A DNA stretch of 63,550 nt, counting the filler, from Neolecta irregularis DAH-3 (taxonomy: Eukaryota), in NCBI GenBank assembly GCA_001929475.1. It is 5 parts of 5 records of this genome, joined end to end, with 100 filler letters (N's around TTAATTAATTAA, not from the genome) between each part and the next. Parts side by side here need not be neighbours in the genome. Positions count along the whole stretch, not along the records: positions 19,796 to 41,338 come from LXFE01000422.1; 4 more parts are not named here. One strand, 5' to 3'. Numbering within the stretch: position 1 is the stretch's first letter; each line of letters begins with the position of its first letter. A program made the position numbers and the translations under genes. Under the pieces are notes generated by a model, which did not search any database, was not told the origin of the DNA, and saw only the letters and a list, made by a program, of their open reading frames with translations. Positions 146-61,567 of the stretch are shown here, in pieces.

Positions 146-1276
146 CTAAAATCTGTAATTGTTGTCAAATTTATCAGAGGGATAGTCCGCCATCGCGTTA
201 TTGTCTTCAATTTTGACATGTCTGGGTTCTGAGGAAGGAAGACCTTGTGTCTGTCCTTCAGAATATGTCGACGCATCTGTCTGAGCATGACTGTGGAAGA
301 GACTTGTCATGAAAGAGGATGGAGCGTTATCGTTATTCATGTGAGATTGAGCTGTTGCCCAGATAGTGGAAAGTGGAAGATTGACTACGACTATCACTCG
401 CGAAGATTGGAGTAATCCGCCAGCAGGAAGCATCATACCGACAATAGTACATAGAACTGCGCATATCAGATCAACCTTGCTAAAGCCTAAAGAGTACCGG
501 GTATAAGCATAGTCTGACATGCCATGATAAATATGATTGAAATGGGACCAAACTGTTTAAAACCAAGTTTTCTTCGAATAACGATTGATTTCCATAATTT
601 GGCCATGAAGATTGAAGAAAAGAAGCAGAGACTGAAAGCGAATGCAATATGATCGGCTCGAGAAATCCAAACATCACGAACTCCGTTCACTCCAAAAGTG
701 ACAACCGTAACCCATATATTAACAGACATAACTCCAAGAGCAACGATGGCCGATACTATAGTCATGATGTTTCTAGTGGATTGATATGGCGCAAATACAG
801 AGCGACATTGTAGTATCAAGGCCATTTCGATTAGAGCCATGAGAATCACGTTCGAACAGGTTGCTGCTTTCAGTAGAATCCAATCGCTTGTTGGGATCAC
901 TGAATAATCCATCACGAATCCCACGTAGATACTACCCCATGCACTGAGCCAGTAAAGGTGCCTTAATGTGCTGTTGATAATTGCAACGATGAGACAGAGT
1001 ACATTCATGATATGTACGGGCTTCTTGAAGCGTTCAAGTTTAGTTGTGATCCCAAGGACAAAAAGAACGATGGCACACATCCCGATTTGCGCACTGTAGC
1101 CACTTGCAGTCTCAAGTCTTGAGAGCTCTAAAATATTAATAATGTTGCTCGAAAGATGAGGATATACGATATCCATCAATGTCGTGCAGACGGATCGTAA
1201 CATTCCGACCGTCGCTCCCAAAAAGAGTAATAGGCTGAAAAAAAGGAGGATAACCGGCCTTCTCAAGAGTAGCCAT
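146..1276 (-). CDS. STE2: Ste2/Mam2-type pheromone receptor (7-TM GPCR), 3 exons
   Basis: Spliced N-terminus MATLEKAGYPPFFQPITLFGSDG..LHDID; hydrophobic TM segments; Ste2 motif RRKLGFKQFGPISIIFIMACQTMLIP; two GT-AG introns restore frame. Confidence 0.92.
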
Positions 1277-2892
1277 ATCGAAAAGCAATGTTATTTGCGC
1301 TTATTCAGGCCGTGTTATATGCCTGCTTTGCGACTGAAATAGTGAATGACTGGAGCTGCCAGAGATCTCAGGGGAAATATATAAAGCAGGGAAAGTTAGA
1401 GAATTAACGATGAAGCCAATTTGGTCTTTCCAGTCTACTACTGGAAGCCGGTGGGGACCAATCAAGCTGTTGAAACCTACTAGGCTGTAACACGGCCAAA
1501 ACACCTATTTAGGCATATGCAAGCTGTAAGAAGTTACATAAAGAAGTTATGCGAAATCAGACATAATATTTGCATCAATGTGCCAACCAGAGCCAAAGAT
1601 TTGGGCCCAAACTCCAGGTTTGAACGACCGCCTTTAAATCCGTTCTGGAGAATCGAGGCGATATAAAAATTGGCTTCGATTATGTGAAGTCTTGAAAAAA
1701 TGATCAACCAGGTCAAAAAGAAATGATTTGACAAATAGATCAAAGATTTCCGGTAATTACGAGTTCAGAAGAAGAAACATTGTAAAAAAGACCGAGGGAG
1801 CTGCTTGTGTGATATCACTCCGATACTCTTGAATCTGTATTCTGCAAGACAATATTTGCCACCAAATCGAAAGAGGCCTTCCGTTAGCTTCACGGCACCA
1901 TTGTGTGACAAGCAAAGGCCCTCGAGCCGACTAGGGGTGGTTTGGTAAGAAGTTTTGTGAATCTCAGGAGAGGACTAAATATTTTAGCAATGGAGTCGAT
2001 TACAGACAAAAGATAGAGAGATAAGACGAGTAAACTCTAGTCCTACGAAACTCATCGTCCTTGGAAAGGAAGGTATCAGCAGTCAGGCCTTTTCGTGATG
2101 TTTGGTGCTCCAGTCACCTGCGAATATTCCAAAGATTTGAGCGCTTATGAAAATCATAGGGGCATAAATTTAACCCGCTCGCTTCCGAAAGTACGTCCGA
2201 TTTGGACTGAAGCGTTAACATCGTTTCACCAGGTTGTCAAGAATAATACGAATACGACAACCTTGTTCAAATCCGGGATTTGGTAAACAACACTATGAGA
2301 AAAAGGGTGTGAAATGACACAACCGGCTGCTAAATCTACCCTGCTCTAGAAATTATACCAGTCTAGTATTCAAAGTCTTTATTGTGCTGGTAGCAAGACG
2401 AGACATGCGACCTTGAGCTCAGGATACTACAGGCGCAATCGCTTTGTATATATTCTGGGAGAATAGACTATGTTCTGGGTTTTTTCATTTTAGCAGCTCT
2501 GTCTTTGTGCTACTCGTTATAATTTCACAACGACGATCTGCCGGTAACAACACCAGTGCTTCACTGGTATCAACTATACTTCATTTCTTCTCAGATTTGC
2601 AAAATCGGGTTTCACTACAAAATGTACACCATTATCGCACGAAGATTGATGTGGGTCTTATTTACCAAGTGTTCATGGCTCTACTATTCGTTGAATCCTC
2701 CCTATGAAATTGTTATTCTCTAATTCGCCGTACTGGTGACCAAAAACTGTGTCTGCAGCCGGTGTGAATGTTTGAAGATACAGAACGTTGATTATGTAGA
2801 TTACTCTTTAATGTGTTATTCGCTTTACTTATAAGTATTAAGAGAGATGTTTCAAATCAGGCCCCACTTCTCCTCCCTTCACCCTTCGCATC

Positions 2893-19695: not shown

Positions 19696-19795
19696 NNNNN
19701 NNNNNNNNNNNNNNNNNNNNNNNNNNNNNNNNNNNNNNNTTAATTAATTAANNNNNNNNNNNNNNNNNNNNNNNNNNNNNNNNNNNNNNNNNNNN
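19696..19795. other. Assembly spacer (N run with TTAATTAATTAA six-frame stop linker)
   Basis: Identical 100-nt construct recurs at 41339, 43158 and 61468. Confidence 0.98.
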
Positions 19796-19971
19796 ACAAT
19801 TCCGTGACAAAAGCGAGCGCTGCAAAAGTACTCGCACTGCTCGAGAAGCAGGGAGAAATAGTAGTAAAGACATACGGTTGGTTGCAAATATCTAAAGCTG
19901 ACGCTAGGAAAACAGTCCGTCTATGTCATCAAGCAGGACAGTAATACCAGCGACAAAACTAACTGCAGGAC
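19796..19971 (+). repeat. Second partial HOP2 copy (allele or paralog) between gaps
   Basis: 176 bp matching 20472-20647 with 5 substitutions. Confidence 0.9.
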
Positions 19972-20289
19972 NNNNNNNNNNTTATCTTGCTCCTTTAGAC
20001 TTTTATTAATCGCGTTGGATTTATCTTGCTCCTTTAGACTTTTATTAGACATCTTAGAATACTGATCTAGACATCGATCACGCTCCTTTAGACATCTAGC
20101 GATATTATACTCATCTAGACATCTACTGTTAATCGCGCGTAATAGGATTATACGAATTTGGGCGTTTGCGGTAGGTGATCATGTCGTGACGCGAGTCGTC
20201 CCACGCCAACCTCATAGAGTCGTCACGTGAGACGACGCCGAATTCTTATTATATACTCGATACAAATATCTCGACTTTCCTTGCCAACA

Positions 20290-21227
20290 ATGGGAAAAGT
20301 AAAGACAACTCAAGTCAAGGGAGATGAAGGTATACCCTCCCGATCAAAGTTATTCACGGGAGCCGAGAAAATCGTTCTAGAGTACTTGAGGAAGCAAAAT
20401 CGACCATACAGTGCCAGTACGATATCCCGCTTGGGCAATACAATGACCAGCGGATATATCCTGCAACCTGCACAATTCCGTGACAAAAGCGAGCGCTGCA
20501 AAAGTACTCGCACTGCTCGAGAAGCAGGGAGAAATAGCAGTAAAGACATACGGTTGGTTGCATATATCTCAAGCTGACGAAAGGAAAACAGTCCGTCTAT
20601 GTCATCAAGCAGGACAGTAATACCAGCGACAAAACTAACTGCAGGACCCGCTGGACACTGCGTCGCCCCAGGAACTCGAGGAAATGGACGAAAAGATTCA
20701 GACCTTGAAGACCGAAATCGCTCAGGCGAAAAATAGGATAAAAGCGCTGACGTCATGTGTGCGCTGGAGTGGATGTTTTACTGACAAGAGCACTCGCTGC
20801 GCTGATGGGCACGCAAACGACACAAGAACTCGGCGCAAACATGCCCGTTCTCAAACAAGAGGTATAAATGCACACGGCCTGTCTGACGGCTATGGACGGA
20901 CGAATTGGAGGCGCGATTAAGTTCGCTGCGGTCCGGCAGTGTCCGGCTAATTACCCCTGAAGAACGGACAAGAATTGACAAAGAATATGTATTTATGCGC
21001 AAGACGTGGCGCGCGAGAAAGCGGATGGTGCCGGTAGATGCCGGGGATAATGCTGATACCCAGTTTGCGGATCTGTGGTTTGCGCTGACGGAGAATCTGG
21101 AGCACGATGGCGAGTTGCGGGTATTTATTGTTTATCCGGGTGCTCATGACAGGCGATGCTGGGGATCGAGGACGACGAAGAAGCCATGGGCGACGATTTG
21201 GTGGTGGAATCCAAACCCGGCAAGTAA
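20290..21227 (+). CDS. HOP2: Meiotic homologous-pairing protein Hop2/Meu13, 9 exons, two predicted non-canonical introns
   Basis: LEYLRKQNRPYSATDI, KTYGKQSVY, ITPEE, WRARKRMF, LGIEDDE; introns 20330-20362, 20417-20450, 20553-20583, 20613-20644, 20757-20790, 20862-20895, 21028-21063, 21121-21152. Confidence 0.93.
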
Positions 21228-21525
21228 GACTGCGGCAACGTGACCTTTTCCCCACCCGCCTCCTCGATTCCTCCTGTTTGTTATAGCTGTATCAATTTAT
21301 AGCCGCTTAGCTATCAACCGCTGTTTATGCAAAGCCTGCTGTTTATNNNNNNNNNNCCATTTATAGCTGTATCAATTTATAGCCGCTTAGCTATCAACCG
21401 CTGTTTATGCAAAGCCTGCTGTTTATCCGCCCAAAGTTCTGCCGTCCTAGAGCCGCGATCCTGAAATATCCTGCCCGATCCTGAAATATCCTGCCCGATC
21501 CTATTCACGCTCCACCGTAAACACA

Positions 21526-22947
21526 ATGACCGCCCTGCACAAAACCCAGCCGCAAAACACAGACGGCCACCGTGCGGCGGCAGTCGGCAGCCCGCCGGGA
21601 AACAGCATGTCCTTGCACAAGCGTCCATGCTGACCGGCAGACACAAGCCATGTTCCGTGCAAGTTCTTCCGCCAAGGCGCCTGCACCGCCGGCCGCAGCT
21701 GCCAGTTCTCGCACATCGTCGAGACGGAGCACTTGGTGTGCAAGTACTTTCAAAAGGGAAACTGCAAGTTTGGCACAAAGTGCGCACTGGCCCATATTCT
21801 TGCAGACGGCCGGCGGGTGCCTTCGCGCTCGCCGCATTACACGCCGGGAGGCACGCTGCCTGCCTCGCTGCAGCTGGGCAGCCGCATTGTTCCCGCGGGC
21901 GCAGCGCGATCCGGGCCGTCGGCCCTGCACAACGGCCTTGTCATGTCCCGCAAGTCGCAGTCCCCTCGCGACGAGTTTCCCGCCCTGTCTTCGAATCCCG
22001 CCCAGCGCTCGTTCCCGATGCCGATCCCTAACCAGTTCCCATCGATCTCAAGCCCGTTCCATCCGCCAACCACCGCCGGCTTTGCCGCCAAGACCCTCGG
22101 CCCGCTCGACGCTACCCTGCCGCCGTCCCTCGACTCCAACTCGCTGTCCTATTTTGCGCGCCACGGCCCCGTTGCCGCGTCGGTGCCCTCCAGGTTTGGA
22201 CGCTCGCTCGGCTCCTCCGCGTCGCCCTACACACACACCTCCTTGTTTATCCACAGCGACAAGGCCCGCGATCTTCCCTCCGGCCGCGCCCCAGGCTCGC
22301 CCCGCAACTCCTCGGCGTTTGCCCACGACAGGCACCGTCAGTCGATACTCTCCCGCCCCGCCGCCGTGTCGTCAAGCTTTCCCGCCCGCGGCTGGCCTGC
22401 AAACAACAGCGCCGATGAAGCGGTCGATGACGATATAGAGTTTGCGCTCGAAGAAGAGTTTGTTCCCACTTCGCTGCACGAGGATGTGTTTTCGCCTCAA
22501 GAACGACAGCGCCGTCTGTCTCGTCATGGACAACGAGAAAGCATGGAACGCGAAGCACGAAACGCCCTCTATTCCCCTCCCGTCGAGCTTTCTTCCAGTT
22601 CAGGCTCAATTCCAAGAGGCACGCCCCCCTCTTCATCTCGCTTTGGCGCTCTATTTAGCTCTCGATATTCTAAAGACGATCTCGTCTCGCCAAACTCGGG
22701 ACACGTCGCTTCCCCATTACGCAGGTCGGTAGATCTCGTGTCACTTCACACTAGTCAACGTATACTCGACTTTGATCCTACCCCAGATTCCAGACCCCCA
22801 GACTTTCTCTACGTCCCACCCGTCACTGCAACACACAATCAAAAATCGTCCGTCGCCTCCATTCATCCAGACGACGATACAACCTTCTTCATGGACGACC
22901 CAGATGAAAGTCTGGTTACAGCAGAAATGCACAAAGTGTTGATTTAG
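21526..22947 (+). CDS. Tandem CCCH zinc-finger protein (Cps3/Lee1-like), 2 exons
   Basis: NTSHVPCKFFRQGACTAGRSCQFSH and CKYFQKGNCKFGTKCALAH; EEEFVP motif; GC-AG intron 21605-21640 removes an in-frame stop. Confidence 0.9.
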
Positions 22948-23119
22948 TAACGGAATATATACGGTACATAGAAGGGATTATTTACGATTGGAATTTCAAA
23001 AAGCAAGAATTCACTTGAATAATTGGGGGTTTGATCGAGGTGGTAGGTAACTTAAAATTGACTCGGGGTTTCTAAAAGATGTATACATTCGCTTTGTGTT
23101 GTGTTTCTCCTGTTTCGCG

Positions 23120-23137
23120 TAAGACACGCGTGTCTTA
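23120..23137. promoter_or_regulatory. Perfect 18-bp palindrome with MCB box (ACGCGT) upstream of EXO1
   Basis: TAAGACACGCGTGTCTTA, preceded by TCGCGT, 80 bp before the ATG. Confidence 0.55.
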
Positions 23138-23216
23138 ACCAACCACCATACTCGCCCGACATTCTCGATACTCGCCCGATACTCGTAGCCAGATATTCTC
23201 AATACTCGTACCCGAC

Positions 23217-25185
23217 ATGGGCATTCATGGCCTTCTTCCTGCCCTGAAATCAATTCAACAGAAAACCCATATTCGAGCGTTTGCAGGTCAGACAGTCGGT
23301 GTTGATGCCTATGTTTGGCTGTACAAAGGGGCTTTTGCTTGTGCCTTCAACCTGGCACTTGGAAAAGACACTACAAAGTGCGATTCTCTTTCTCCCCTGT
23401 TGACCGGGAAGATACGTGGACTATGTGATGCATCGAGTGAAAATGCTTCGACATTATAATGTTCGTCCGTATATTGTATTAGACGGCGGTTTCCTGCCCA
23501 GTAAAGCCAAAACGGAAATTGAACGCAAAAAGTACATCTAAACCAACTTGTATTAATCTACTAGACGAAGAGCGGATAGTCGGGCATTAGGATTGAAATT
23601 TTTGGCTCAAGGACAGAAAAAGAAGGCTATGGAGCAGTTTAAAAGGTGCTTGGATATCACCCCTGAAATGGCCCATCGATTCATTATTGCATGCAATAGT
23701 GAATCAACAATTTTCTGATTTTCTAGGAACTCCAGAAAGAACATATCGATTATATCGTTGCGCCTTATGAAGCAGACGCTCAACTGGCATACCTCGAAAA
23801 AAAGGGTCTGATATCAGCCATTATCACTGAAGACTCGGATCTTCTCGTCTACGGCTGTAAAAAAGTCTTGTTCAAAATGGATCAGTGTGGCGAATGCATT
23901 GAAATTGATCGATCGAGATTTGCGGCTACTGCTGATATCAAATTAGCTGGATTCAGCGATGATACTTTTCGACATATGGCTATGCTTTCTGGCTGTGATT
24001 ATCTCTCAAATATACCGAATCTCGGTCTAAAGAAAGCCCATAAATACTTGTACAAGTATAAAACGATCGATAGGGTATAATGCAGCTATTTCATTTCCTT
24101 ATTTTGCATAGTTTTTCCGAGCGATGGCTTTGGATCCTACTATCAAGATTCCAGACGGTTACGAACAAGATTTTTATAAAGCAGATCTTACATTTCGACA
24201 TCAGCGAGTTTTTTGCCCGGTTTCGAATACGTTGGTGATGTTGAATGAGCCTGAAAATCCGGCACTTTTGGAAGGGCAGGATTTTATTGGACCGTACGTC
24301 TGTTTTGTTTCAAAATTGTTCATTTTCAGATTATTGTTATCGCATATTGCCCAAGGGATTGCTCAAGGATACTTGTGTCCCGTCACAAAGAAACCTTTTC
24401 GTCATGTTGGTACCTCCGGTAAGGAGAATATTCCTCCGAAATCTTTGAAGAAAACTGAATCTTGTCCGAAACCTGGTTCTATTGAATCCTTTTTTGGCTC
24501 GGAACCGGTCCTCGCGACTGCTACCAGCTCTTTATCTCTAACACCGTTATTTCATATTGTTCCGCCCAAGAGGTCTCTGGAAGCAATGCCGATATCGGAT
24601 GCATCAGAACGTATCGCAAAACGAATCAAGGTCTTCTCGCAGGAACCAACCTCGGCTAATACCCCAACTATCACCCAAAGTTGCTACTTTACACCTCCTA
24701 ATAGCCAACAGTCTCTTAAATTTCGAGCGATCCATACTGCTGCAAAGGAAGCCATGAAGCCTGATGTTGCTGATTCGCCGATCACGCCACCTGAATCCCA
24801 GGTTTTAGACCTTGGGGAACCCGAACAAATCGCTGCTGCATCTACCACGGCAGTCAACGAATCACTTGAAAAAGCAGAAATTCTGCCACCCTTGGAAGAA
24901 TATTGTACCCCAACTCCTAAACAACGCTCCAGCAACTTTTCAACAACTGGACCATCAAAGTTTGCAGAAAATTGGAAATCTCGATTTTCAAATCAATATT
25001 CTACACCAACGAGACCAGATCCTACAAAAACTCCATTCATGATGACTAGTTCTTTGCCCAGATTGGGAATACGGTCTATTGAAATAGCGAGAACAAAAAT
25101 TAGACTTTCAAAGAACGTGCCTATAGTGGAAAAGGCGGCGGGCACACCATCTTTCTTTGAAAAGTTTCGGTATGCATTGTCTTGA
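23217..25185 (+). CDS. EXO1: Exonuclease 1 (XPG/Rad2 family), 6 exons
   Basis: MGIHGLLPALK, VDAYVWLYKGA, VAPYEADAQLAYL, TEDSDLLVYG, LSGCDYL, FRHQRVF; GC-AG intron 23689-23726. Confidence 0.96.
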
Positions 25186-38890: not shown

Positions 38891-40436
38891 TCATTCCTTT
38901 TCATAATCCAAGGGTTTTCCAATTCGACCTTCACGAATGTTGTTGTACTTGGATCTGGGATACCCGAGAATATTTCTTTCGGATGACTTCGATGGAATAG
39001 TTTCTTCGAATTCTTGGGACGTAGTTCCAATGATTGAATTTGGGTTATTTACCGGGTGATCACTAACCTTTAGCACTTGAAAATGGGGGTAGAGAAAGAG
39101 TTGTACCCAGAGGTCTCCCAGAACATTACTCCGCCGAGTTGATGGGACTTTACATACTTCTACAAAGTTTGAGCGACTTTACCAGTTGGGAGAAAATACC
39201 GCTTTGTAACGTGTACATTCAGGAGTATCGTAAGAAACCATCATTCGCTTCTTTGGGTCATAGGACCAGCTTGCACAAGACTTTTCATCTATTGAAACTC
39301 AGCCAAAGGCATTCAAGATCACTGTACCGAAATGCTCCTCTGCACCTTCAAGAGGCAATACCTTGTAATCAAACACTCCGTTCTCCCAGCTGCCTTGGCC
39401 GACACCGGAGAAAGGGGTTCCAGGACCGTCGGTCTCCAGAAATGATCTTCCATAAAGGGGAGATCCTGGATGCTTAGTTCCTTGTACTCGAAGGAACCTA
39501 TACCGAGGACTAATTTACTAGCAGGAACACCAGCATTGATGTATGCTTCAACGGCCTATAAATATAAATACTGGACTTTGGTAAATGGAATATACCTGAT
39601 CTGTGTTGATTCCGTCTCCGTAAAGATTCGAAATATGACCTGCCTTTTGATCCCAGCTACCAGAATAATCATATCTAAGAACGATGAGAAATTTCCCTTC
39701 AAGAAGGGTTATACGCCATGAGATTCCAAAATGAGACGTACCGATTCATCTCCAGGATTCGAAGTTTCTCGTAGTCTCGCTTTCCACAGGGAGCAGCAAT
39801 TGTAAGGTACAGCTTTTCTTTTGACAACCCATTGAGACTGGCATAATCATCCAGACGTTCTCTCGTCATCTTGAGCAATGAGACAAAATCCTGAGCTTCC
39901 TGGTCATTCTGAGGGTATTCCCAATCGACTGTCTGTCAAAGAGAAGAGCATAAAGGGATTTATCTTACTATCAAGGCCATCGAAGCCAACATCTTTCATG
40001 ATACTGATAGCAGATTGAGCAAACTTTTCTCGTTTCCCCGGATCACCCACCATTGGAGCAAAGTTTGCGGAATAAGACCATCCTCCAATAGATAAGAGGA
40101 CCTTCATATTTCGATTTTCAGTCTTCAATTTGAATATTTGCTTGACGCATCCGTATGCATTGTCTCCAGTTTCATTCCACGAGTCTTCCGGATAATGCTA
40201 CAATCTTAGAAATCTCGCAATATAAATGAAAAACTTTTTCCAAGTCTGACCAGCAATCAGACAAATAAACTTCTCCGGTTTCTGGTCGTACATTTGCAAA
40301 TGCATACAAAAGGAAATCCAGTTTATCAGCTGGAATCTCTTGCGGCTGGAAGTTTCGGCCGTATATTGCCCTATAATAATAAATTTCAGCTTTAAGAACA
40401 CTGATACCAATTGACAAAATAGGCAAAGATATTCAT
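38891..40436 (-). CDS. GH18 chitinase, no signal peptide, about 10 exons
   Basis: [48 protein letters not shown]. Confidence 0.95.
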
Positions 40437-40619
40437 TTCGCAAGCCCAATAATCTCTGAAAAGAATTTTCTTCGGGGCACACGATATCCCTTTATTACCC
40501 AGGGTAAGCCCGATAGTTATCTTAACATTCGAAACAAATAATTAATTGTGGCGCTTATCCCAGACCTTGGATCCATTAAAATGAACTGCGGCAGTCATCC
40601 CAGATATTCGACACACTAA

Positions 40620-40700
40620 GGGTGCGTTTGGTGCGCGCCAAAATTTCGTAAAATGTGGCTTTTAATTCAGGCACGCGTTTGGTGCGCACCACACTTTGTA
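40620..40700 (+). mobile_element. Possible solo end of a Harbinger-type element
   Basis: TAA then GGGTGCGTTTGGTGCGC, with GCGTTTGGTGCGC repeated about 50 bp inside; starts like the MITE TIR at 27012; no partner TIR found. Confidence 0.5.
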
Positions 40701-41271
40701 AATATACTTTCCAAAAATTCGAATCTCAAGTGCGGAAACTAGAGAGGAGAACTCGCCCTAGACCCAGACCCAGAATACCCGTCTGGAGCAATTGGTACTC
40801 TACAATCTGCTATTACAAAGTCTAGATAGTATTTCAATCCCTAACACTTTGGAATAACAGTCTGAATAGCATCGCCTGGACCAATGGGCCAGCCCAGCCT
40901 CTGAAAATCTCGTGGGCTTTGGCCCACCCCAAGACGGGTTGTCTGATGAAGCAGGTGGCAGTACTGTTTGTGGGGGAATATGAAGTGTAGCAGCTGGTGG
41001 CAGCGAGGACATGCTTATAGCAAGGGTAGCAAGGCATGTAGGGGGAACAGCAGGAGCAGGGTCAGCGGCAACTTCCTACCACGAGATGGAGGGCTGCCCC
41101 ATGTCGCTCAGAATCTGTCCCAAGGGTTAAAGTCGAGAAAAGGATGGAGATGGAGTGAATGTGGCCGGGCCAAACAGGCCAAACTGGTGCGTGAGACGGG
41201 AAAGATGGGTGAGCCAGGCAGGAAAGATGGGTGGGCAAGGCTCGCGAGGTGGGCGGGCAAGACAGGTGTGC

Positions 41272-41338
41272 GGGAGGGATGGGAGAGGCAGGAGGGATGG
41301 GAGAGGCAGGAGGGATGGGAGAGGCAGGAGGGATGGGA
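41272..41338. repeat. 18-bp minisatellite (GGAGGGATGGGAGAGGCA)n running into a gap
   Basis: About 3.5 direct copies. Confidence 0.9.
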
Positions 41339-41438
41339 NNNNNNNNNNNNNNNNNNNNNNNNNNNNNNNNNNNNNNNNNNNNTTAATTAATTAANNNNNN
41401 NNNNNNNNNNNNNNNNNNNNNNNNNNNNNNNNNNNNNN
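41339..41438. other. Assembly spacer
   Basis: N-TTAATTAATTAA-N. Confidence 0.98.
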
Positions 41439-42495
41439 GCCGCCGCCGCCGCCTATAACAACACAGAGCCCGCAGCCCGCCCCGCGCAATGCCTCCCGCC
41501 CTCCTGCGCGCACGCGACTCTGGCGCAGACCCGCCGCCCGCCGACGCCGGCTCCGGCTCGACGCTCTTCGTGGGGCCCTCCACGCAGGTCGGTACGCGCC
41601 CCTGCCGCGTCCACGCTCACCCGCGCCCCCAGCAATGGTCGTGCTCTATGTCATCACCGGCACCGTCACCTGCCTGTTCCTCGTCATCATCGTCACCGGC
41701 GCCGTCAAGGCCGCCCGCCACCCCGACCGCTACGGCCCCCGCGGCTCCTCTGCCCACGGCCCCCCGCGTACTGCTCTGACTGACCGACCCGCCCTGACCG
41801 CCCCGCAGAGACTCGCGCCCGCGGAATCGCCCGCGCCCTGCTCGACACCTTCCCCACCGTCATCTTCCGCAGCGCCACCGCCACCGCCCTCCCCCCCGCA
41901 AAGCCCGGCAAGCTCGGCCTCGAGCTGGACAGAGCCGTCTCGCTCGACAGAGCCGTCTCGCTGGACAGGGCCGTCTCGCTCGACAGGGCCGGCTCCGCCC
42001 CAGACCCCCCGCCGCGCTCCGCCGACGGCCCCAACCCCCAGTGCCCCATCTGCATCGACGCCTTCCAGCCCGGATCGGAGCTGCGCATCCTCCCCTGCAA
42101 GCACCAGGTTTGGCCCTCCGCTGCGTCATTGACCGCTAGTTCCACGCCGCCTGCATCGACCCCTGGCTGCTCAAGGTCTCCGCCCTCTGTCCCCTATGGC
42201 ATCTCCCCGCGCCCGCCTCCTGCTCACATACAGCCGCTCCAACGTCGACCCCTCCGACCAGGGCTCCTCCGCGGAAGCCCCGCACCTGCCCGCCCCAGAC
42301 TCGGCACACTCGCGGCATCTCCATATCTTTGACAAATACATCGCAATCATGAGACCCCACCGCAGGTCCAGCAATCCAGGTGAAGTCGACTCGTCCGCAA
42401 TCGATTCCCTCAGACGCCACTCCCTGTTCAATAGGCACCCTCTCCCGTTGCAGTCCACTAACGAATCTTCCATCCCTCACGTTCCCCCTGCCTAG
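41439..42495 (+). CDS. Transmembrane RING-H2 E3 ligase (PA-TM-RING/RNF13-like), 5' truncated by gap
   Basis: TM VAMVVLYVITG...[57 protein letters not shown]; GC-AG intron 42199-42233. Confidence 0.9.
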
Positions 42496-42539
42496 CCTGA
42501 TTACCGCCGTCGCCTGATACCCGCCGTCTCGTCTCACTC

Positions 42540-43157
42540 GTTTATAATTCTCCGTTATAATTCTCCGTTATAGCTCCCGTTATAGCTCCCATTATAGCTC
42601 CCGTTATAGCTCTCCCGGTCATTTCAAGCCGGTTCATTTCTATTTATCTTTCTTGTTCGGAGCGGTTAATCTGGCGTTCAGTTACTCTTGTCGTCACCCG
42701 GCCGTTGTAGTAATATGATCAAAATATTATAATCTAATCCATAATCAATCCTTAGAATCTAATCTGAATCCTTGGAATCGGTCAATATTTCTTGAATTTT
42801 TCTCATCCATAAAGTCGTCTTGTCTTCATTTTTAATCTCTTTAGACTCCCCTTCAATCTCAGACTCCCCTTTAATCTCCCCTTCAATCTCAGACTCCCCT
42901 TCAATCTCAGACTCCCCTTCAATCGTCTTTTCCATACATTGTGCTATACGCCGAGCTCGACCTGTGATTTTCCGACGAATTCTACAAACTTTGCCAGATT
43001 CATTTTGTTGTAAATGAATAATTAAATCATCTACAAGTGACGAAACTTGTTGTGAATCCTCTAAAACACTCGTAATTCGAGATATATTTCGAGATGTATT
43101 AGATGTATTAGATGTATTAGATGTATTAGATGTATTAGATGTATTAGATGTATTAGA
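42540..43157. repeat. Cluster of short tandem repeats
   Basis: (GTTATAGCTCCC)-like units 42540-42612, (TCTCAGACTCCCCTTCAA)-like units about 42838-42923, (AGATGTATT)n about 43091-43157. Confidence 0.85.
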
Positions 43158-43257
43158 NNNNNNNNNNNNNNNNNNNNNNNNNNNNNNNNNNNNNNNNNNN
43201 NTTAATTAATTAANNNNNNNNNNNNNNNNNNNNNNNNNNNNNNNNNNNNNNNNNNNN
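43158..43257. other. Assembly spacer
   Basis: N-TTAATTAATTAA-N. Confidence 0.98.
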
Positions 43258-43282
43258 GGCGAGGGCGCGCACCGGGCCAGCC

Positions 43283-44023
43283 ATGTCTGCCTCCTCGGAC
43301 ATGGCCGCTGCCCCGCTCGTCGTCTCTGACGCTGCCGCCAAGGACATGGACATCGCACCCGCACCCGCACCCGCTCCCGCTCCCGCTCCCGCTCCCGACA
43401 TGGAGAAGCAGCCCTCGCCGCTCGCCGACTTCCCGCGCGCGACCATGGTCAACCCCACGCCGCTCGGCATCTCCGCGTTCGCCGTCTCGACGTTTGTGCT
43501 CGGCTTCTACCAGGGCCAGTTCGGCGGCCTGACCATCCCAAACGTCTTCGTGCCCGTCGCCTTCTTCTACGGCGGCATCGCGTCCTTCCTCGCCGGCCAG
43601 TTCGAGTTCTACATCGGAAACACCTTTGGCGCCGTCGTCCTCAACGCGTTTGGCGGCTTCTGGTTCTCCCTCGCCTGCGTCTACATCCCCAGCTTCAACA
43701 TCCTCGCCGCCTACGCCGCCGACCTCCAGCAGGGCTACTACGCCATCGCCATCTACCTCACCTCGTGGCTCATCTTCGTCACCATCATCGTCGCCGCCCT
43801 CCTCTCCACCCGCCGCTGGAGCCTCGTCGGCATGTTCAGCTGCATCTGGCTCAACTTTCTGCTCTCCATCATCGCCTTCTACAAGGACCCCCTCACCCAC
43901 CACAACGTCCTCAAGGCCGCCGGCTCCTTCTCCATCCTCGCCGCCATCTTTGGCCTCGCAAACACCGTCGAGGAACTAGTCACCCACGAAAACTCCCTCT
44001 TCACCATCCCCCACCAGCTATAA
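43283..44023 (+). CDS. Gpr1/Fun34/YaaH (Ato/Ady2-like) acetate/ammonia transporter, intronless
   Basis: NPTPLGISAF, FYGG..FLAG, GNTFG, FGGFW; 6 TM segments. Confidence 0.93.
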   Translation: MSASSDMAAAPLVVSDAAAKDMDIAPAPAPAPAPAPAPDMEKQPSPLADFPRATMVNPTPLGISAFAVSTFVLGFYQGQFGGLTIPNVFVPVAFFYGGIASFLAGQFEFYIGNTFGAVVLNAFGGFWFSLACVYIPSFNILAAYAADLQQGYYAIAIYLTSWLIFVTIIVAALLSTRRWSLVGMFSCIWLNFLLSIIAFYKDPLTHHNVLKAAGSFSILAAIFGLANTVEELVTHENSLFTIPHQL

Positions 44024-61467: not shown

Positions 61468-61567
61468 NNNNNNNNNNNNNNNNNNNNNNNNNNNNNNNNN
61501 NNNNNNNNNNNTTAATTAATTAANNNNNNNNNNNNNNNNNNNNNNNNNNNNNNNNNNNNNNNNNNNN
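61468..61567. other. Assembly spacer
   Basis: N-TTAATTAATTAA-N. Confidence 0.98.

What the first reader, a model, noticed from the sequence alone, without database searches (positions are those of the whole stretch)
20862..20895. HOP2 intron 6 appears to end in TGG rather than YAG (GT-GG intron)
Seen: CTC AAA CAA GAG|GTATAA...CTGAC GGCTATGG|ACG GAC GAA TTG GAG GCG CGA TTA. There is no AG within the usual distance of the CTGAC branch point. A 34-nt intron ending TGG matches the length of the other HOP2 introns (31-36 nt). It yields LKQETDELEARL, the same spacing as human LKKECAGYRERL (recalled). The next AG (20910) is also in frame but makes a 49-nt intron and removes five residues from the coiled coil. 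Inference: the acceptor is set by distance from the branch point and tolerates GG.
Basis: partly seen in the sequence, partly recalled or inferred. Interest (0 to 1): 0.8.

Follow-up and report, generated by a model that had tools for sequence, protein, structure and literature searches.

The report
Fungal HOP2 intron ending in GG
A 34-base intron in the meiosis gene HOP2 of the fungus Neolecta irregularis really is cut out at a TGG instead of the near-universal AG, a rare but known kind of exception that also explains why the public gene model is truncated.

Summary
The window is from Neolecta irregularis DAH-3. A contig of run X1 (depth 436) is colinear with the window and reads G at 20894. 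A contig of run X2 matches the window without a mismatch over 2,003 listed bases. It lacks all eight HOP2 introns and the neighbour gene's intron. Its joint 20860/20895 removes exactly 34 nt, read as GT..GG or, one base to the left, GG..TG. The AG at 20909-20910 is not used. The joined form gives a complete 223-aa Hop2. Its spacing across the junction equals that of 57 of 59 alignable orthologues. X2's library type is not on record; I infer that it is RNA-derived. The GG lies 9 nt after the branch A of CTGAC. The next AG lies 24 nt after it. Intron 4 is also non-canonical: 32 nt, GA..AG register, with 7-nt direct repeats. The deposited 106-aa model reads through intron 4 and stops. GT-GG and GA-AG introns are known at about 0.04% each in another fungus. 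This is a new member of a known rare class. The distance-ruler mechanism is inferred, not shown.

The parts
20290..21227 (+). HOP2 (homologous-pairing protein 2) gene from ATG to TAA: nine exons, eight introns, 672-nt coding sequence, 223 aa.
   Evidence: Exon joints come from the X2 contig. The translation is a complete ORF. Exon 3 hits Pfam PF07106 TBPIP/Hop2 at E 4.5e-6, 26.9 bits against a cut-off of 22.8. P0001 is named Homologous-pairing protein 2 [Neolecta irregularis DAH-3].
20862..20895 (+). Intron 6, 34 nt, GT..GG (GTATAA...CTGACGGCTATGG). The register 20861-20894 (GG..TG) gives the same RNA.
   Evidence: X2 joint 20860->20895, skips 34, both=1. The sequence occurs once in the window.
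20883..20887 (+). Presumed branch-site motif CTGAC, branch A at 20886, 9 nt before the 3' end of the intron.
   Evidence: Motif and distance. The branch point is inferred from the motif and was not mapped.
20893..20895 (+). TGG at the 3' end of intron 6. Base 20894 is G where A is expected.
   Evidence: The window sequence. X1 contig record 1 covers 19982-21280 and differs only at 20359.
20909..20910 (+). Next AG downstream (in TTGGAG), in frame and 24 nt after the branch A. Not used in the X2 contig.
   Evidence: Using it would delete TDELE and leave 24 residues in a span that holds 29 in 57 of 59 orthologues.
20791..20861 (+). Exon 6 (...GANMPVLKQE).
   Evidence: X2 piece 20791-20860, with one ambiguous G.
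20896..21027 (+). Exon 7 (TDELEARLSSLRSGSVRLITPEERTRIDKEYVFMRKTWRARKRM).
   Evidence: X2 piece 20895-21026; aligned to orthologues.
20613..20644 (+). Intron 4, 32 nt, second non-canonical intron. The GA..AG register is shown. Any register from 20609-20640 to 20616-20647 gives the same RNA, and none is GT-AG.
   Evidence: X2 joint 20608->20641, skips 32, both=7. The 28-nt GT-AG alternative 20617-20644 shifts the frame.
20609..20615 (+). First copy of the 7-nt direct repeat GCAGGAC at the intron 4 boundary. The second copy is at 20641-20647.
   Evidence: both=7.
20330..20362 (+). Intron 1, 33 nt, GT..AG, ends GAG.
20417..20450 (+). Intron 2, 34 nt, GT..AG.
20553..20583 (+). Intron 3, 31 nt, GT..AG, ends AAG.
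20757..20790 (+). Intron 5, 34 nt, GT..AG, ends GAG.
21028..21063 (+). Intron 7, 36 nt, GT..AG.
21121..21152 (+). Intron 8, 32 nt, GT..AG.
19796..19971 (+). Second, slightly diverged copy (allele or assembly leftover) of HOP2 exon 3 to intron 4, with an identical intron 4.
   Evidence: 5 differences in 176 nt, 4 of them in intron 3. The intron 4 pattern matches at 19937-19968.

Best explanation
Intron 6 of the Neolecta irregularis HOP2 gene is a real spliceosomal intron of the major (U2) type, 34 nt long. It starts with GT, carries a CTGAC branch motif and ends in UGG instead of YAG. It is removed exactly at 20862-20895. The resulting mRNA encodes a full-length, normally spaced Hop2. Shown: the junction, the G at position -2, the open frame and the orthologue spacing. 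Inferred: how the site is chosen. Introns of this fungus are only about 30-45 nt long, and the 3' end lies only a few nucleotides after the branch A (3-9 nt in the RNA-supported set). After branching, only nucleotides at about that distance can reach the catalytic centre. The last G can still make its usual contact with the first G of the intron. A G in place of the A at -2 is tolerated. The AG 24 nt from the branch is out of the preferred range. An A-to-G change at -2 therefore left the cut where it was. The same tolerance appears at the 5' end of intron 4, which is cut at GA, 4 nt upstream of an unused GTAATA.
For:: one X2 contig (3,280 nt, depth 132) shows 0 other letters in the 8 listed pieces (2,003 nt). 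It skips all 8 HOP2 introns and the neighbour gene's intron. Its joint 20860->20895 skips 34 nt. No X2 depth lies inside the intron: the bin 20822-20905 reads 78.8, which equals 132.4 x 50/84; an X1 contig (depth 436) keeps the introns and reads G at 20894. X1 differs from the window at 20359 and 22365, so two slightly different sources share the G; the X2 joints give a 672-nt ORF of 223 aa; of 62 Hop2 representatives of 195-245 aa, 59 align over the span TTQEL..LRSG. Of those 59, 57 have 29 residues there, as the model does, and 1 has a gap opposite TDELE; the branch-motif A lies 3-7 nt from the 3' end in seven of the nine supported introns and 9 nt in intron 6; intron 1 has no strict motif; of 103 ORF-joining GT-AG candidates in the window, 21 have a YTRAY motif within 14 nt of the end, and 14 of those 21 have it at 7-10 nt. 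These are not RNA-validated. (PMC10711555, passages read): yeast lacking Prp18 uses non-YAG sites including UGG, often under 10 nt from the branch point, helped by pairing with the first intron base. (PMC11590231): a curated fungal annotation holds 38 GT-GG and 35 GA-AG introns.
Against: X2's library type is not on record and the tool labels it 'DNA?'. That it is RNA-derived is my inference from its missing introns. Logan contigs drop rare variants, so minor use of the AG at 20910 cannot be excluded. X2 cannot show its own intron sequence, so an A at 20894 in the transcribed allele is not strictly excluded. No branch point was mapped. The GG..TG register gives the same RNA. The distance-ruler idea rests on nine introns of two neighbouring genes and on an unvalidated candidate list, in which at least one row (22011-22035) is contradicted by X2. 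In intron 5 the first AG after the branch motif (AAG, 4 nt) is skipped for GAG at 6 nt. Distance alone therefore does not pick the first possible site.
Confidence: 0.78

Rival explanations
1. Allele difference. The RNA behind X2 came from a HOP2 allele with TAG (A at 20894), so the intron is an ordinary GT-AG intron in the expressed allele. The G in the assembly and in X1 belongs to another haplotype.
For: More than one haplotype is present. X1 differs from the window at 2 places in 2.5 kb, and minor variant contigs exist at 21484-21574. A diverged partial copy of HOP2 lies at 19796-19971. X2 cannot show its intron.
Against: X2 shows no mismatch to the window over 2,003 listed bases. At 22365, the one exonic or intergenic place where X1 differs, X2 agrees with the window. 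Both DNA versions (window and X1) have G at 20894, and no variant contig is listed there.
Confidence: 0.07
2. Same RNA, other register. The intron is 20861-20894 (GG..TG), so both ends are non-canonical, not only the 3' end.
For: One search reports the joint as GG..TG with one ambiguous base. Sequence alone cannot separate the two registers.
Against: It needs two deviations where GT..GG needs one. Seven of the nine supported introns start with GT and one with GC. GTATAA resembles the donors GTATAC and GTATTT of introns 1 and 8.
Confidence: 0.05
3. No splicing at this site in the cell. The joined form is an artefact (reverse-transcriptase template switching or contig assembly), or X2 is DNA that lacks the introns.
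For: X2 is labelled 'DNA?'. Intron 4 is flanked by 7-nt direct repeats, the signature of template switching.
Against: Intron 6 has only 1 shared base at its ends. Nine of nine introns in two adjacent genes are missing from one contig that keeps the intergenic DNA at full identity. No DNA process is known to do that. Artefacts are minor species, yet X2 shows no depth inside the introns. Both odd junctions restore the frame and the orthologue spacing.
Confidence: 0.04
4. Regulated weak sites. This does not exclude the best explanation. The GG acceptor and the GA donor are kept because they make HOP2 splicing inefficient outside meiosis, so that functional Hop2 is made only in meiotic cells.
For: Two of eight introns in one meiotic gene are non-canonical, against about 0.04% for each type in a curated fungal annotation. 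S. cerevisiae HOP2 intron 1 has a non-consensus 5' site (GUUAAG). Its splicing depends on Npl3 and is rescued by a consensus site (PMC7969001, passages read). Meiosis-specific splicing of S. pombe meu13 is recalled, not checked here.
Against: No RNA from different stages was available. The dominant X2 form is fully spliced. The excess in HOP2 could equally reflect a high genome-wide rate in this fungus, which I could not measure.
Confidence: 0.2
5. Intron 6 is a U12-type (minor spliceosome) intron. In that class GT-GG ends occur, and the 3' site is set by distance from the branch.
For: GT-GG is listed among non-canonical U12-type introns: 5 human and 3 mouse, with ARAF conserved (PMC1557818, tables read). 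Distance-dependent 3' site choice in U12 introns is recalled, not checked.
Against: The 5' end GTATAAATG lacks the U12 consensus RTATCCTT, and the branch region TGTCTGACGG lacks TCCTTRAC (both consensus motifs are recalled). The intron looks like its seven neighbours in length and motifs. Loss of the minor spliceosome in ascomycetes is recalled.
Confidence: 0.01

Closest known systems
Rare non-canonical GT-GG and GA-AG introns of fungi, as catalogued in the manually curated Ganoderma lingzhi annotation (PMC11590231; abstract, passages and Table 1 read)
   Same: Same terminal dinucleotides: GT-GG (38 introns, 0.041%) and GA-AG (35 introns, 0.038%) in a fungal nuclear genome. They were found only after RNA-guided correction of gene models. 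Missed non-canonical sites damage the predicted models there too.
   Different: There they are scattered singletons among about 92,000 introns. Here two occur in one eight-intron gene, in an ascomycete with introns of only 31-36 nt, and the GG site is the dominant form. No mechanism or branch distance is given in the passages I read.
Non-YAG 3' splice sites used by S. cerevisiae spliceosomes lacking Prp18 (PMC10711555; abstract and passages read)
   Same: UGG is used as a 3' splice site (UBC12, confirmed by RT-PCR). 'BG' and GAG sites are favoured. [quoted passage not shown] Use is helped by pairing with the first base of the intron. In HOP2, two introns end in GAG, one in AAG and one in UGG, all 3-9 nt from the branch motif.
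   Different: In yeast this is a mutant phenotype at alternative, mostly minor sites. Here it is the normal, productive site of a conserved gene in a wild organism. Whether Neolecta has Prp18 or Slu7 was not tested, because no whole genome was available.
[quoted passage not shown]
   Same: The orthologous meiotic gene carries a deviant splice signal. That signal makes its splicing depend on an extra factor (Npl3).
   Different: The yeast deviation is inside the 5' hexamer (GUUAAG) and keeps GU and AG. The Neolecta deviations hit the terminal dinucleotides themselves: GA at the 5' end of intron 4 and GG at the 3' end of intron 6. Regulation is not shown here.
U12-type introns with GT-GG ends (Sheth et al. 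2006, PMC1557818; tables read)
   Same: GT-GG termini, with a 3' end thought to be placed by distance from the branch (recalled).
   Different: Intron 6 has no U12-type 5' site or branch consensus and is 34 nt long. It works like such an intron in one respect only and is not a member.

Membership tests
Spliceosomal intron, major (U2) type, non-canonical GT-GG subclass | Precisely absent from the mature RNA, with the reading frame restored. | tested here: met
   X2 joint 20860->20895; 223-aa ORF. Caveat: that X2 is RNA-derived is inferred.
Spliceosomal intron, major (U2) type, non-canonical GT-GG subclass | GT at the 5' end. | tested here: met
   GTATAA at 20862 in the +1 register allowed. The GG..TG register cannot be excluded.
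Spliceosomal intron, major (U2) type, non-canonical GT-GG subclass | Branch-site motif (CTRAY) shortly before the 3' end. | tested here: met
   CTGAC at 20883-20887, with the A 9 nt from the end. This is a motif only; the branch was not mapped.
Spliceosomal intron, major (U2) type, non-canonical GT-GG subclass | 3' end not AG (here GG), confirmed at DNA level. | tested here: met
   G at 20894 in the window and in the X1 contig.
Spliceosomal intron, major (U2) type, non-canonical GT-GG subclass | Lariat formation at the branch A. | not testable with these tools
   Needs lariat sequencing or primer extension.
Canonical GT-AG intron | AG as the last two bases. | tested here: not met
   The last two bases are GG. 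The only in-frame AG alternative (20910) is not the joint in X2.
U12-type (minor spliceosome) intron | 5' consensus RTATCCTT and branch consensus TCCTTRAC (both recalled). | tested here: not met
   The 5' end is GTATAAAT and the branch region is TGTCTGACGG.
U12-type (minor spliceosome) intron | Minor-spliceosome snRNAs present in the organism. | not tested
   No whole genome is held. The Rfam scan of the window found no RNA family.
Structure-defined non-conventional introns (euglenid type) | Intron ends brought together by stable base pairing. | tested here: not met
   Folds of introns 6 and 4, with and without flanks, give z-scores of +0.16 to -0.42 against shuffles.
Repeated 'introner' or transposon-derived introns (considered for intron 4) | Direct repeats at the boundaries. 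| tested here: met
   7-nt repeat GCAGGAC at 20609-20615 and 20641-20647.
Repeated 'introner' or transposon-derived introns (considered for intron 4) | Many similar copies in the genome. | tested here: inconclusive
   Only the HOP2 copy and its duplicate fragment occur in the 63.5-kb window at up to 3 mismatches. The whole genome was not available.
Hop2/TBPIP protein family | N-terminal winged-helix domain PF07106. | tested here: met
   Exon 3 alone scores 26.9 bits against a cut-off of 22.8, E 4.5e-6. P0001 carries PF07106.
Hop2/TBPIP protein family | Full-length colinearity with Hop2 proteins, through the coiled-coil region to the C-terminal W..RKR motif. | tested here: met
   MAFFT alignment with 62 representatives of 195-245 aa.

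The most novel reading that the evidence does not exclude
Neolecta's spliceosome measures its ultra-short introns rather than reading their terminal dinucleotides. The 3' cut is placed by a branch-point ruler, and both GT and AG can be lost without moving the cut. This would be a natural counterpart of the relaxed 3'-site fidelity of Prp18-less yeast. Non-canonical introns would then be far more common genome-wide than the roughly 0.04% per type seen in other fungi. Many deposited gene models would be truncated, as HOP2 is.
Probability: 0.3. Interest if true: 0.7.

Novelty: new member of a known kind. Interest (0 to 1): 0.5.

Why it matters
There are three reasons.

- **Annotation.** The public Hop2 model of this fungus is a 106-aa stump, because the gene predictor could not pass a GA donor. 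The real gene encodes a normal 223-aa Hop2. Absence or truncation calls for meiotic genes in Neolecta should therefore be re-examined with aligners that allow non-canonical ends.

- **Mechanism.** This is a natural, productive UGG 3' splice site that sits exactly where the AG normally sits. A usable in-frame AG lies only 15 nt further on and is not used. That makes it a clean natural test case for the idea that the distance from the branch point and the terminal G, not the AG dinucleotide as such, fix the second-step site in very short introns.

- **Frequency.** Two terminal-dinucleotide exceptions among eight introns of one meiotic gene are far above published fungal rates. Either fidelity is relaxed genome-wide in this lineage, or meiotic expression is controlled by splicing. 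Both can be tested with existing kinds of data.

Tried and rejected
- **Library types:** no RNA holder was listed by the look-up of sequencing runs. Both runs are labelled 'DNA?'.
- **Whole genome:** none is held. Spliceosome genes such as Prp18, Slu7 and U2AF, the snRNAs and a genome-wide intron census could not be examined.
- **Exon 7 alone (44 aa):** it found no relative in the search for homologous proteins (12 candidates, none at E<=0.01) and none in the PDB. Exon 3 against the PDB gave only chance hits to designed repeat proteins. Pfam gave no hit for exon 7 at E<=0.01.
- **Rfam scan of the window:** 0 families.
- **RNA folding:** folds of introns 6 and 4 show no structure beyond shuffles. 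Structure-defined splicing, or masking of the downstream AG by structure, is therefore rejected.
- **Non-canonical introns elsewhere in the window, by ORF joining:**. The approach cannot fix boundaries to the base. Counts for all 256 end pairs were alike (mean 57, GT..GG 43, GA..AG 60). Spurious ORF pairs dominate the lists. I draw no rate from them.
- **Metagenome contigs:** a pattern scan across the acceptor with N at 20894 gave 0 matches.
- **Earlier findings of this scan:** none on this genome. Two unrelated Ostreococcus notes came up.
- **My first gene model:** it used the 28-nt GT-AG version of intron 4 and was frameshifted. I replaced it with the X2 joints.
- **Print searches:** Neolecta + intron + genome gave 31 papers, 10 listed. 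Neolecta + 'splice site' gave 7 papers. None deals with its splice sites, judging by title or by the abstract starts shown. In the genome paper's main text the words intron and splice occur 0 times. Supplements are closed and may hold intron statistics.

Full report
**What the window is.** The 63,550-base window is a string of scaffolds joined by N44-TTAATTAATTAA-N44 linkers at 19696-19795, 41339-41438, 43158-43257 and 61468-61567. The finding lies in the scaffold 19796-41338, which is 21,543 nt long. A search with the in-frame read-through of exon 1, intron 1 and exon 2 returned one protein, P0001. Its source names it 'Homologous-pairing protein 2 [Neolecta irregularis DAH-3]', and it sits on a contig of 21,543 nt. 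The window also holds a fungal STE2 pheromone receptor, a WSC-domain gene, a sugar transporter and other fungal genes. No whole genome is held for it.

**The observation.** The stretch GTATAAATGCACACGGCCTGTCTGACGGCTATGG is 20862-20895. CTGAC is at 20883-20887. No AG follows before 20895, and the next AG is at 20909-20910. Removing 34 nt gives LKQETDELEARL. Removing 49 nt is also in frame and deletes TDELE.

**The decisive test.** Two public runs hold the locus. The library type of neither is on record, and the tool labels both 'DNA?'. I laid both on 19982-22500.
- X1 gives a contig of depth 436 that is colinear with the window, introns included. Over 19982-21280 it differs only at 20359 (G>T, inside intron 1). 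It therefore reads G at 20894.
- X2 gives one contig of 3,280 nt (depth 132) with 0 other letters in the eight listed pieces (2,003 nt).
- The X2 contig skips every HOP2 intron: 33, 34, 31, 32, 34, 34, 36 and 32 nt. It also skips a 36-nt GC-AG intron of the next gene (21605-21640).
- The joint at the finding is 20860->20895. It skips 34 nt and is reported as GG..TG with one ambiguous base, which is GT..GG one place to the right.
- The AG at 20910 is not the joint.
- X2 depth in the bin 20822-20905 is 78.8, exactly 132.4 x 50/84. No X2 contig covers the intron.

**Is X2 RNA?** The contig lacks nine of nine introns in two adjacent genes. It keeps the intergenic DNA at full identity. I take that as RNA-derived sequence from a compact genome whose transcripts overlap. 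This is an inference, because the record does not say so. I did not try to tie X1 or X2 to any study.

**The product.** The X2 joints give a 672-nt coding sequence and a complete 223-aa protein. Exon 3 alone passes the Pfam threshold for the Hop2 winged-helix domain (26.9 bits against 22.8).

**Orthologue spacing.**
- I searched 1.84 billion representatives with P0001. There were 830 hits at E<=0.001, of which 150 were listed.
- I aligned the spliced model, inside the script box, with the 62 listed hits of 195-245 aa. The other 87 listed hits were left out as shorter or longer.
- Over the span TTQEL..LRSG, 59 of the 62 are alignable.
- Of those 59, 57 have 29 residues, as the model does. The other two have 23 and 26.
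- One of the 59 has a gap opposite TDELE.
- The 49-nt alternative would leave 24 residues, which none has.

**A second exception in the same gene.** Intron 4 is removed as 32 nt (joint 20608->20641), with seven ambiguous bases. The heptamer GCAGGAC stands at both boundaries. None of the eight possible registers is GT-AG.
- The most economical register is GA..AG (20613-20644). It ends 6 nt after the branch A of CTAAC.
- A good-looking GTAATA lies 4 nt inside the intron. Using it with the same AG removes 28 nt and shifts the frame.
- The 32-nt removal gives VIKQDPLD, which aligns with orthologues such as P0003, P0008 and P0017 without a private gap.
- The deposited model P0001 reads straight through intron 4 to a stop, giving 106 aa. 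The public annotation therefore lacks exons 5-9 and the GT-GG intron.

**Anatomy of the nine supported introns.**

| Feature | Values |
|---|---|
| Length | 31-36 nt |
| First two bases | GT x7, GC x1, GA x1 |
| Last three bases | CAG x5, GAG x2, AAG x1, TGG x1 |
| Branch-motif A to 3' end | 3-7 nt in seven; 9 nt in intron 6; no strict motif in intron 1 (TTCAC would give 6) |

- Elsewhere in the window I listed 103 ORF-joining GT-AG candidates. Of these, 21 have a YTRAY motif within 14 nt of the end, and 14 of those 21 have it at 7-10 nt.
- That list is not RNA-validated. At least one of its rows (22011-22035) is contradicted by X2.
- The GG therefore sits where this fungus usually has its AG. 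The unused AG is 24 nt from the branch A.
- No RNA structure beyond shuffles is predicted around either odd intron.

**Mechanism.** Shown: the junction, the base and the protein. Inferred: the 3' cut is placed by reach from the branch point, and the terminal G still contacts the first G of the intron. That G-G contact, and the contact of A(-2) with the branch A, come from solved yeast spliceosome structures that I recall and did not read here.
- Published yeast work fits (PMC10711555, passages read). Without Prp18, S. cerevisiae uses non-YAG sites including UGG. GAG and 'BG' sites gain most. [quoted passage not shown] Pairing with the first intron base helps.
- The Neolecta pattern resembles that relaxed regime: GAG, AAG and UGG ends, all branch-proximal.
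- Distance is not the whole rule. In intron 5 an AAG at 4 nt is skipped for a GAG at 6 nt.

**Rivals.**
- **Allele difference** (0.07): an expressed allele with TAG. Haplotype variation exists. But the window and X1 both have G, and X2 sides with the window at the one informative site (22365).
- **GG..TG register** (0.05): it needs two deviations where GT..GG needs one.
- **Artefact or intron-less DNA** (0.04): this does not fit nine of nine introns, zero intron depth and restored frames. Template switching deserves mention only for intron 4, because of its 7-nt repeats.
- **U12-type** (0.01): the consensus motifs are absent.
- **Meiotic regulation through weak sites** (0.2): this is a non-exclusive reading. 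S. cerevisiae HOP2 intron 1 has a non-consensus 5' site that makes it depend on Npl3 (PMC7969001, passages read). Meiotic splicing of S. pombe meu13 is recalled only.

**What is known.**
- GT-GG and GA-AG introns exist at low frequency. A curated Ganoderma lingzhi annotation counts 38 GT-GG (0.041%) and 35 GA-AG (0.038%) introns (PMC11590231, abstract, passages and Table 1).
- GT-GG also occurs among non-canonical U12-type introns of mammals (PMC1557818, tables).
- In the main text of the Neolecta genome paper the words intron and splice occur 0 times. It states that DNA and RNA of wild fruiting bodies were sequenced, and it gives 14.5 Mb, N50 16 kb and 44% GC (PMC5309816, passages).
- A Pneumocystis study counts 4,202 Neolecta introns at homologous sites and estimates that about 26% were gained independently (PMC7940399, passages).
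- Searches for Neolecta with 'intron' and with 'splice site' found no paper on its splice signals.

**Verdict.** The finding is real. It is a new member of a known rare class, not a new kind of system. Three things raise it above routine: a second terminal-dinucleotide exception in the same eight-intron meiotic gene, the extreme shortness of the introns, and the truncated public model. Whether this reflects genome-wide relaxed fidelity or gene-specific regulation is open.

Noticed in passing
window 20609-20647: HOP2 intron 4 is removed as 32 nt with the heptamer GCAGGAC at both boundaries and no GT-AG register (most likely GA..AG). A GTAATA 4 nt inside is not used. The layout is also what an insertion with a 7-bp target duplication would leave.
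   Followed up: partly
window 20290-20700 (protein P0001): The deposited Neolecta Hop2 model (106 aa) reads through intron 4 to a stop. Exons 5-9 are missing from the public annotation.
   Followed up: yes
window 19796-19971: A second copy of HOP2 exon 3 to intron 4 stands at the start of the scaffold, before a 10-N gap. It has 5 differences in 176 nt, 4 of them in the 31-nt intron 3 (which ends CTAG there instead of AAAG) and 1 in the exon (Ala to Val). It is probably the other haplotype, left in by the assembler.
   Followed up: partly
window 21281-21360: The 10-N gap at 21347-21356 is flanked by duplicated sequence. The X1 contig skips 80 nt and the X2 contig 75 nt here, so the duplication is an assembly artefact.
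   Followed up: yes
window 19696-19795, 41339-41438, 43158-43257, 61468-61567: N44-TTAATTAATTAA-N44 linkers. The window is a concatenation of separate scaffolds, so neighbours across a linker are not physically linked.
   Followed up: yes
window 21605-21640: The CCCH zinc-finger gene next to HOP2 (ATG at 21527) has a 36-nt GC-AG intron (GCATGT...CTGACCGGCAG), supported by the X2 contig.
   Followed up: yes
window 20359 and 22365: The X1 contigs differ from the window at two places: G>T in intron 1, four bases before its 3' end, and C>T at 22365. Minor variant contigs exist at 21484-21574. More than one haplotype was sequenced.
   Followed up: no
window 20000-24000 and 40000-44000: GC content is about 50-53% in these stretches against about 41-43% in most of the window. 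The first GC-rich stretch holds HOP2 and the CCCH gene. X1 contigs join it to the AT-richer flank, so it belongs to the same genome.
   Followed up: partly
window 487-1290 (- strand): A 267-aa open frame matches the fungal STE2 alpha-factor pheromone receptor family (PF02116, E 8.7e-49). It is a mating gene in a fungus whose sexual cycle is little studied.
   Followed up: no
window 20757-20790: In intron 5 the first AG after the branch motif (AAG, 4 nt from the A) is skipped in favour of GAG at 6 nt. The 3' site is therefore not simply the first AG. Two of the eight HOP2 introns end in GAG.
   Followed up: partly
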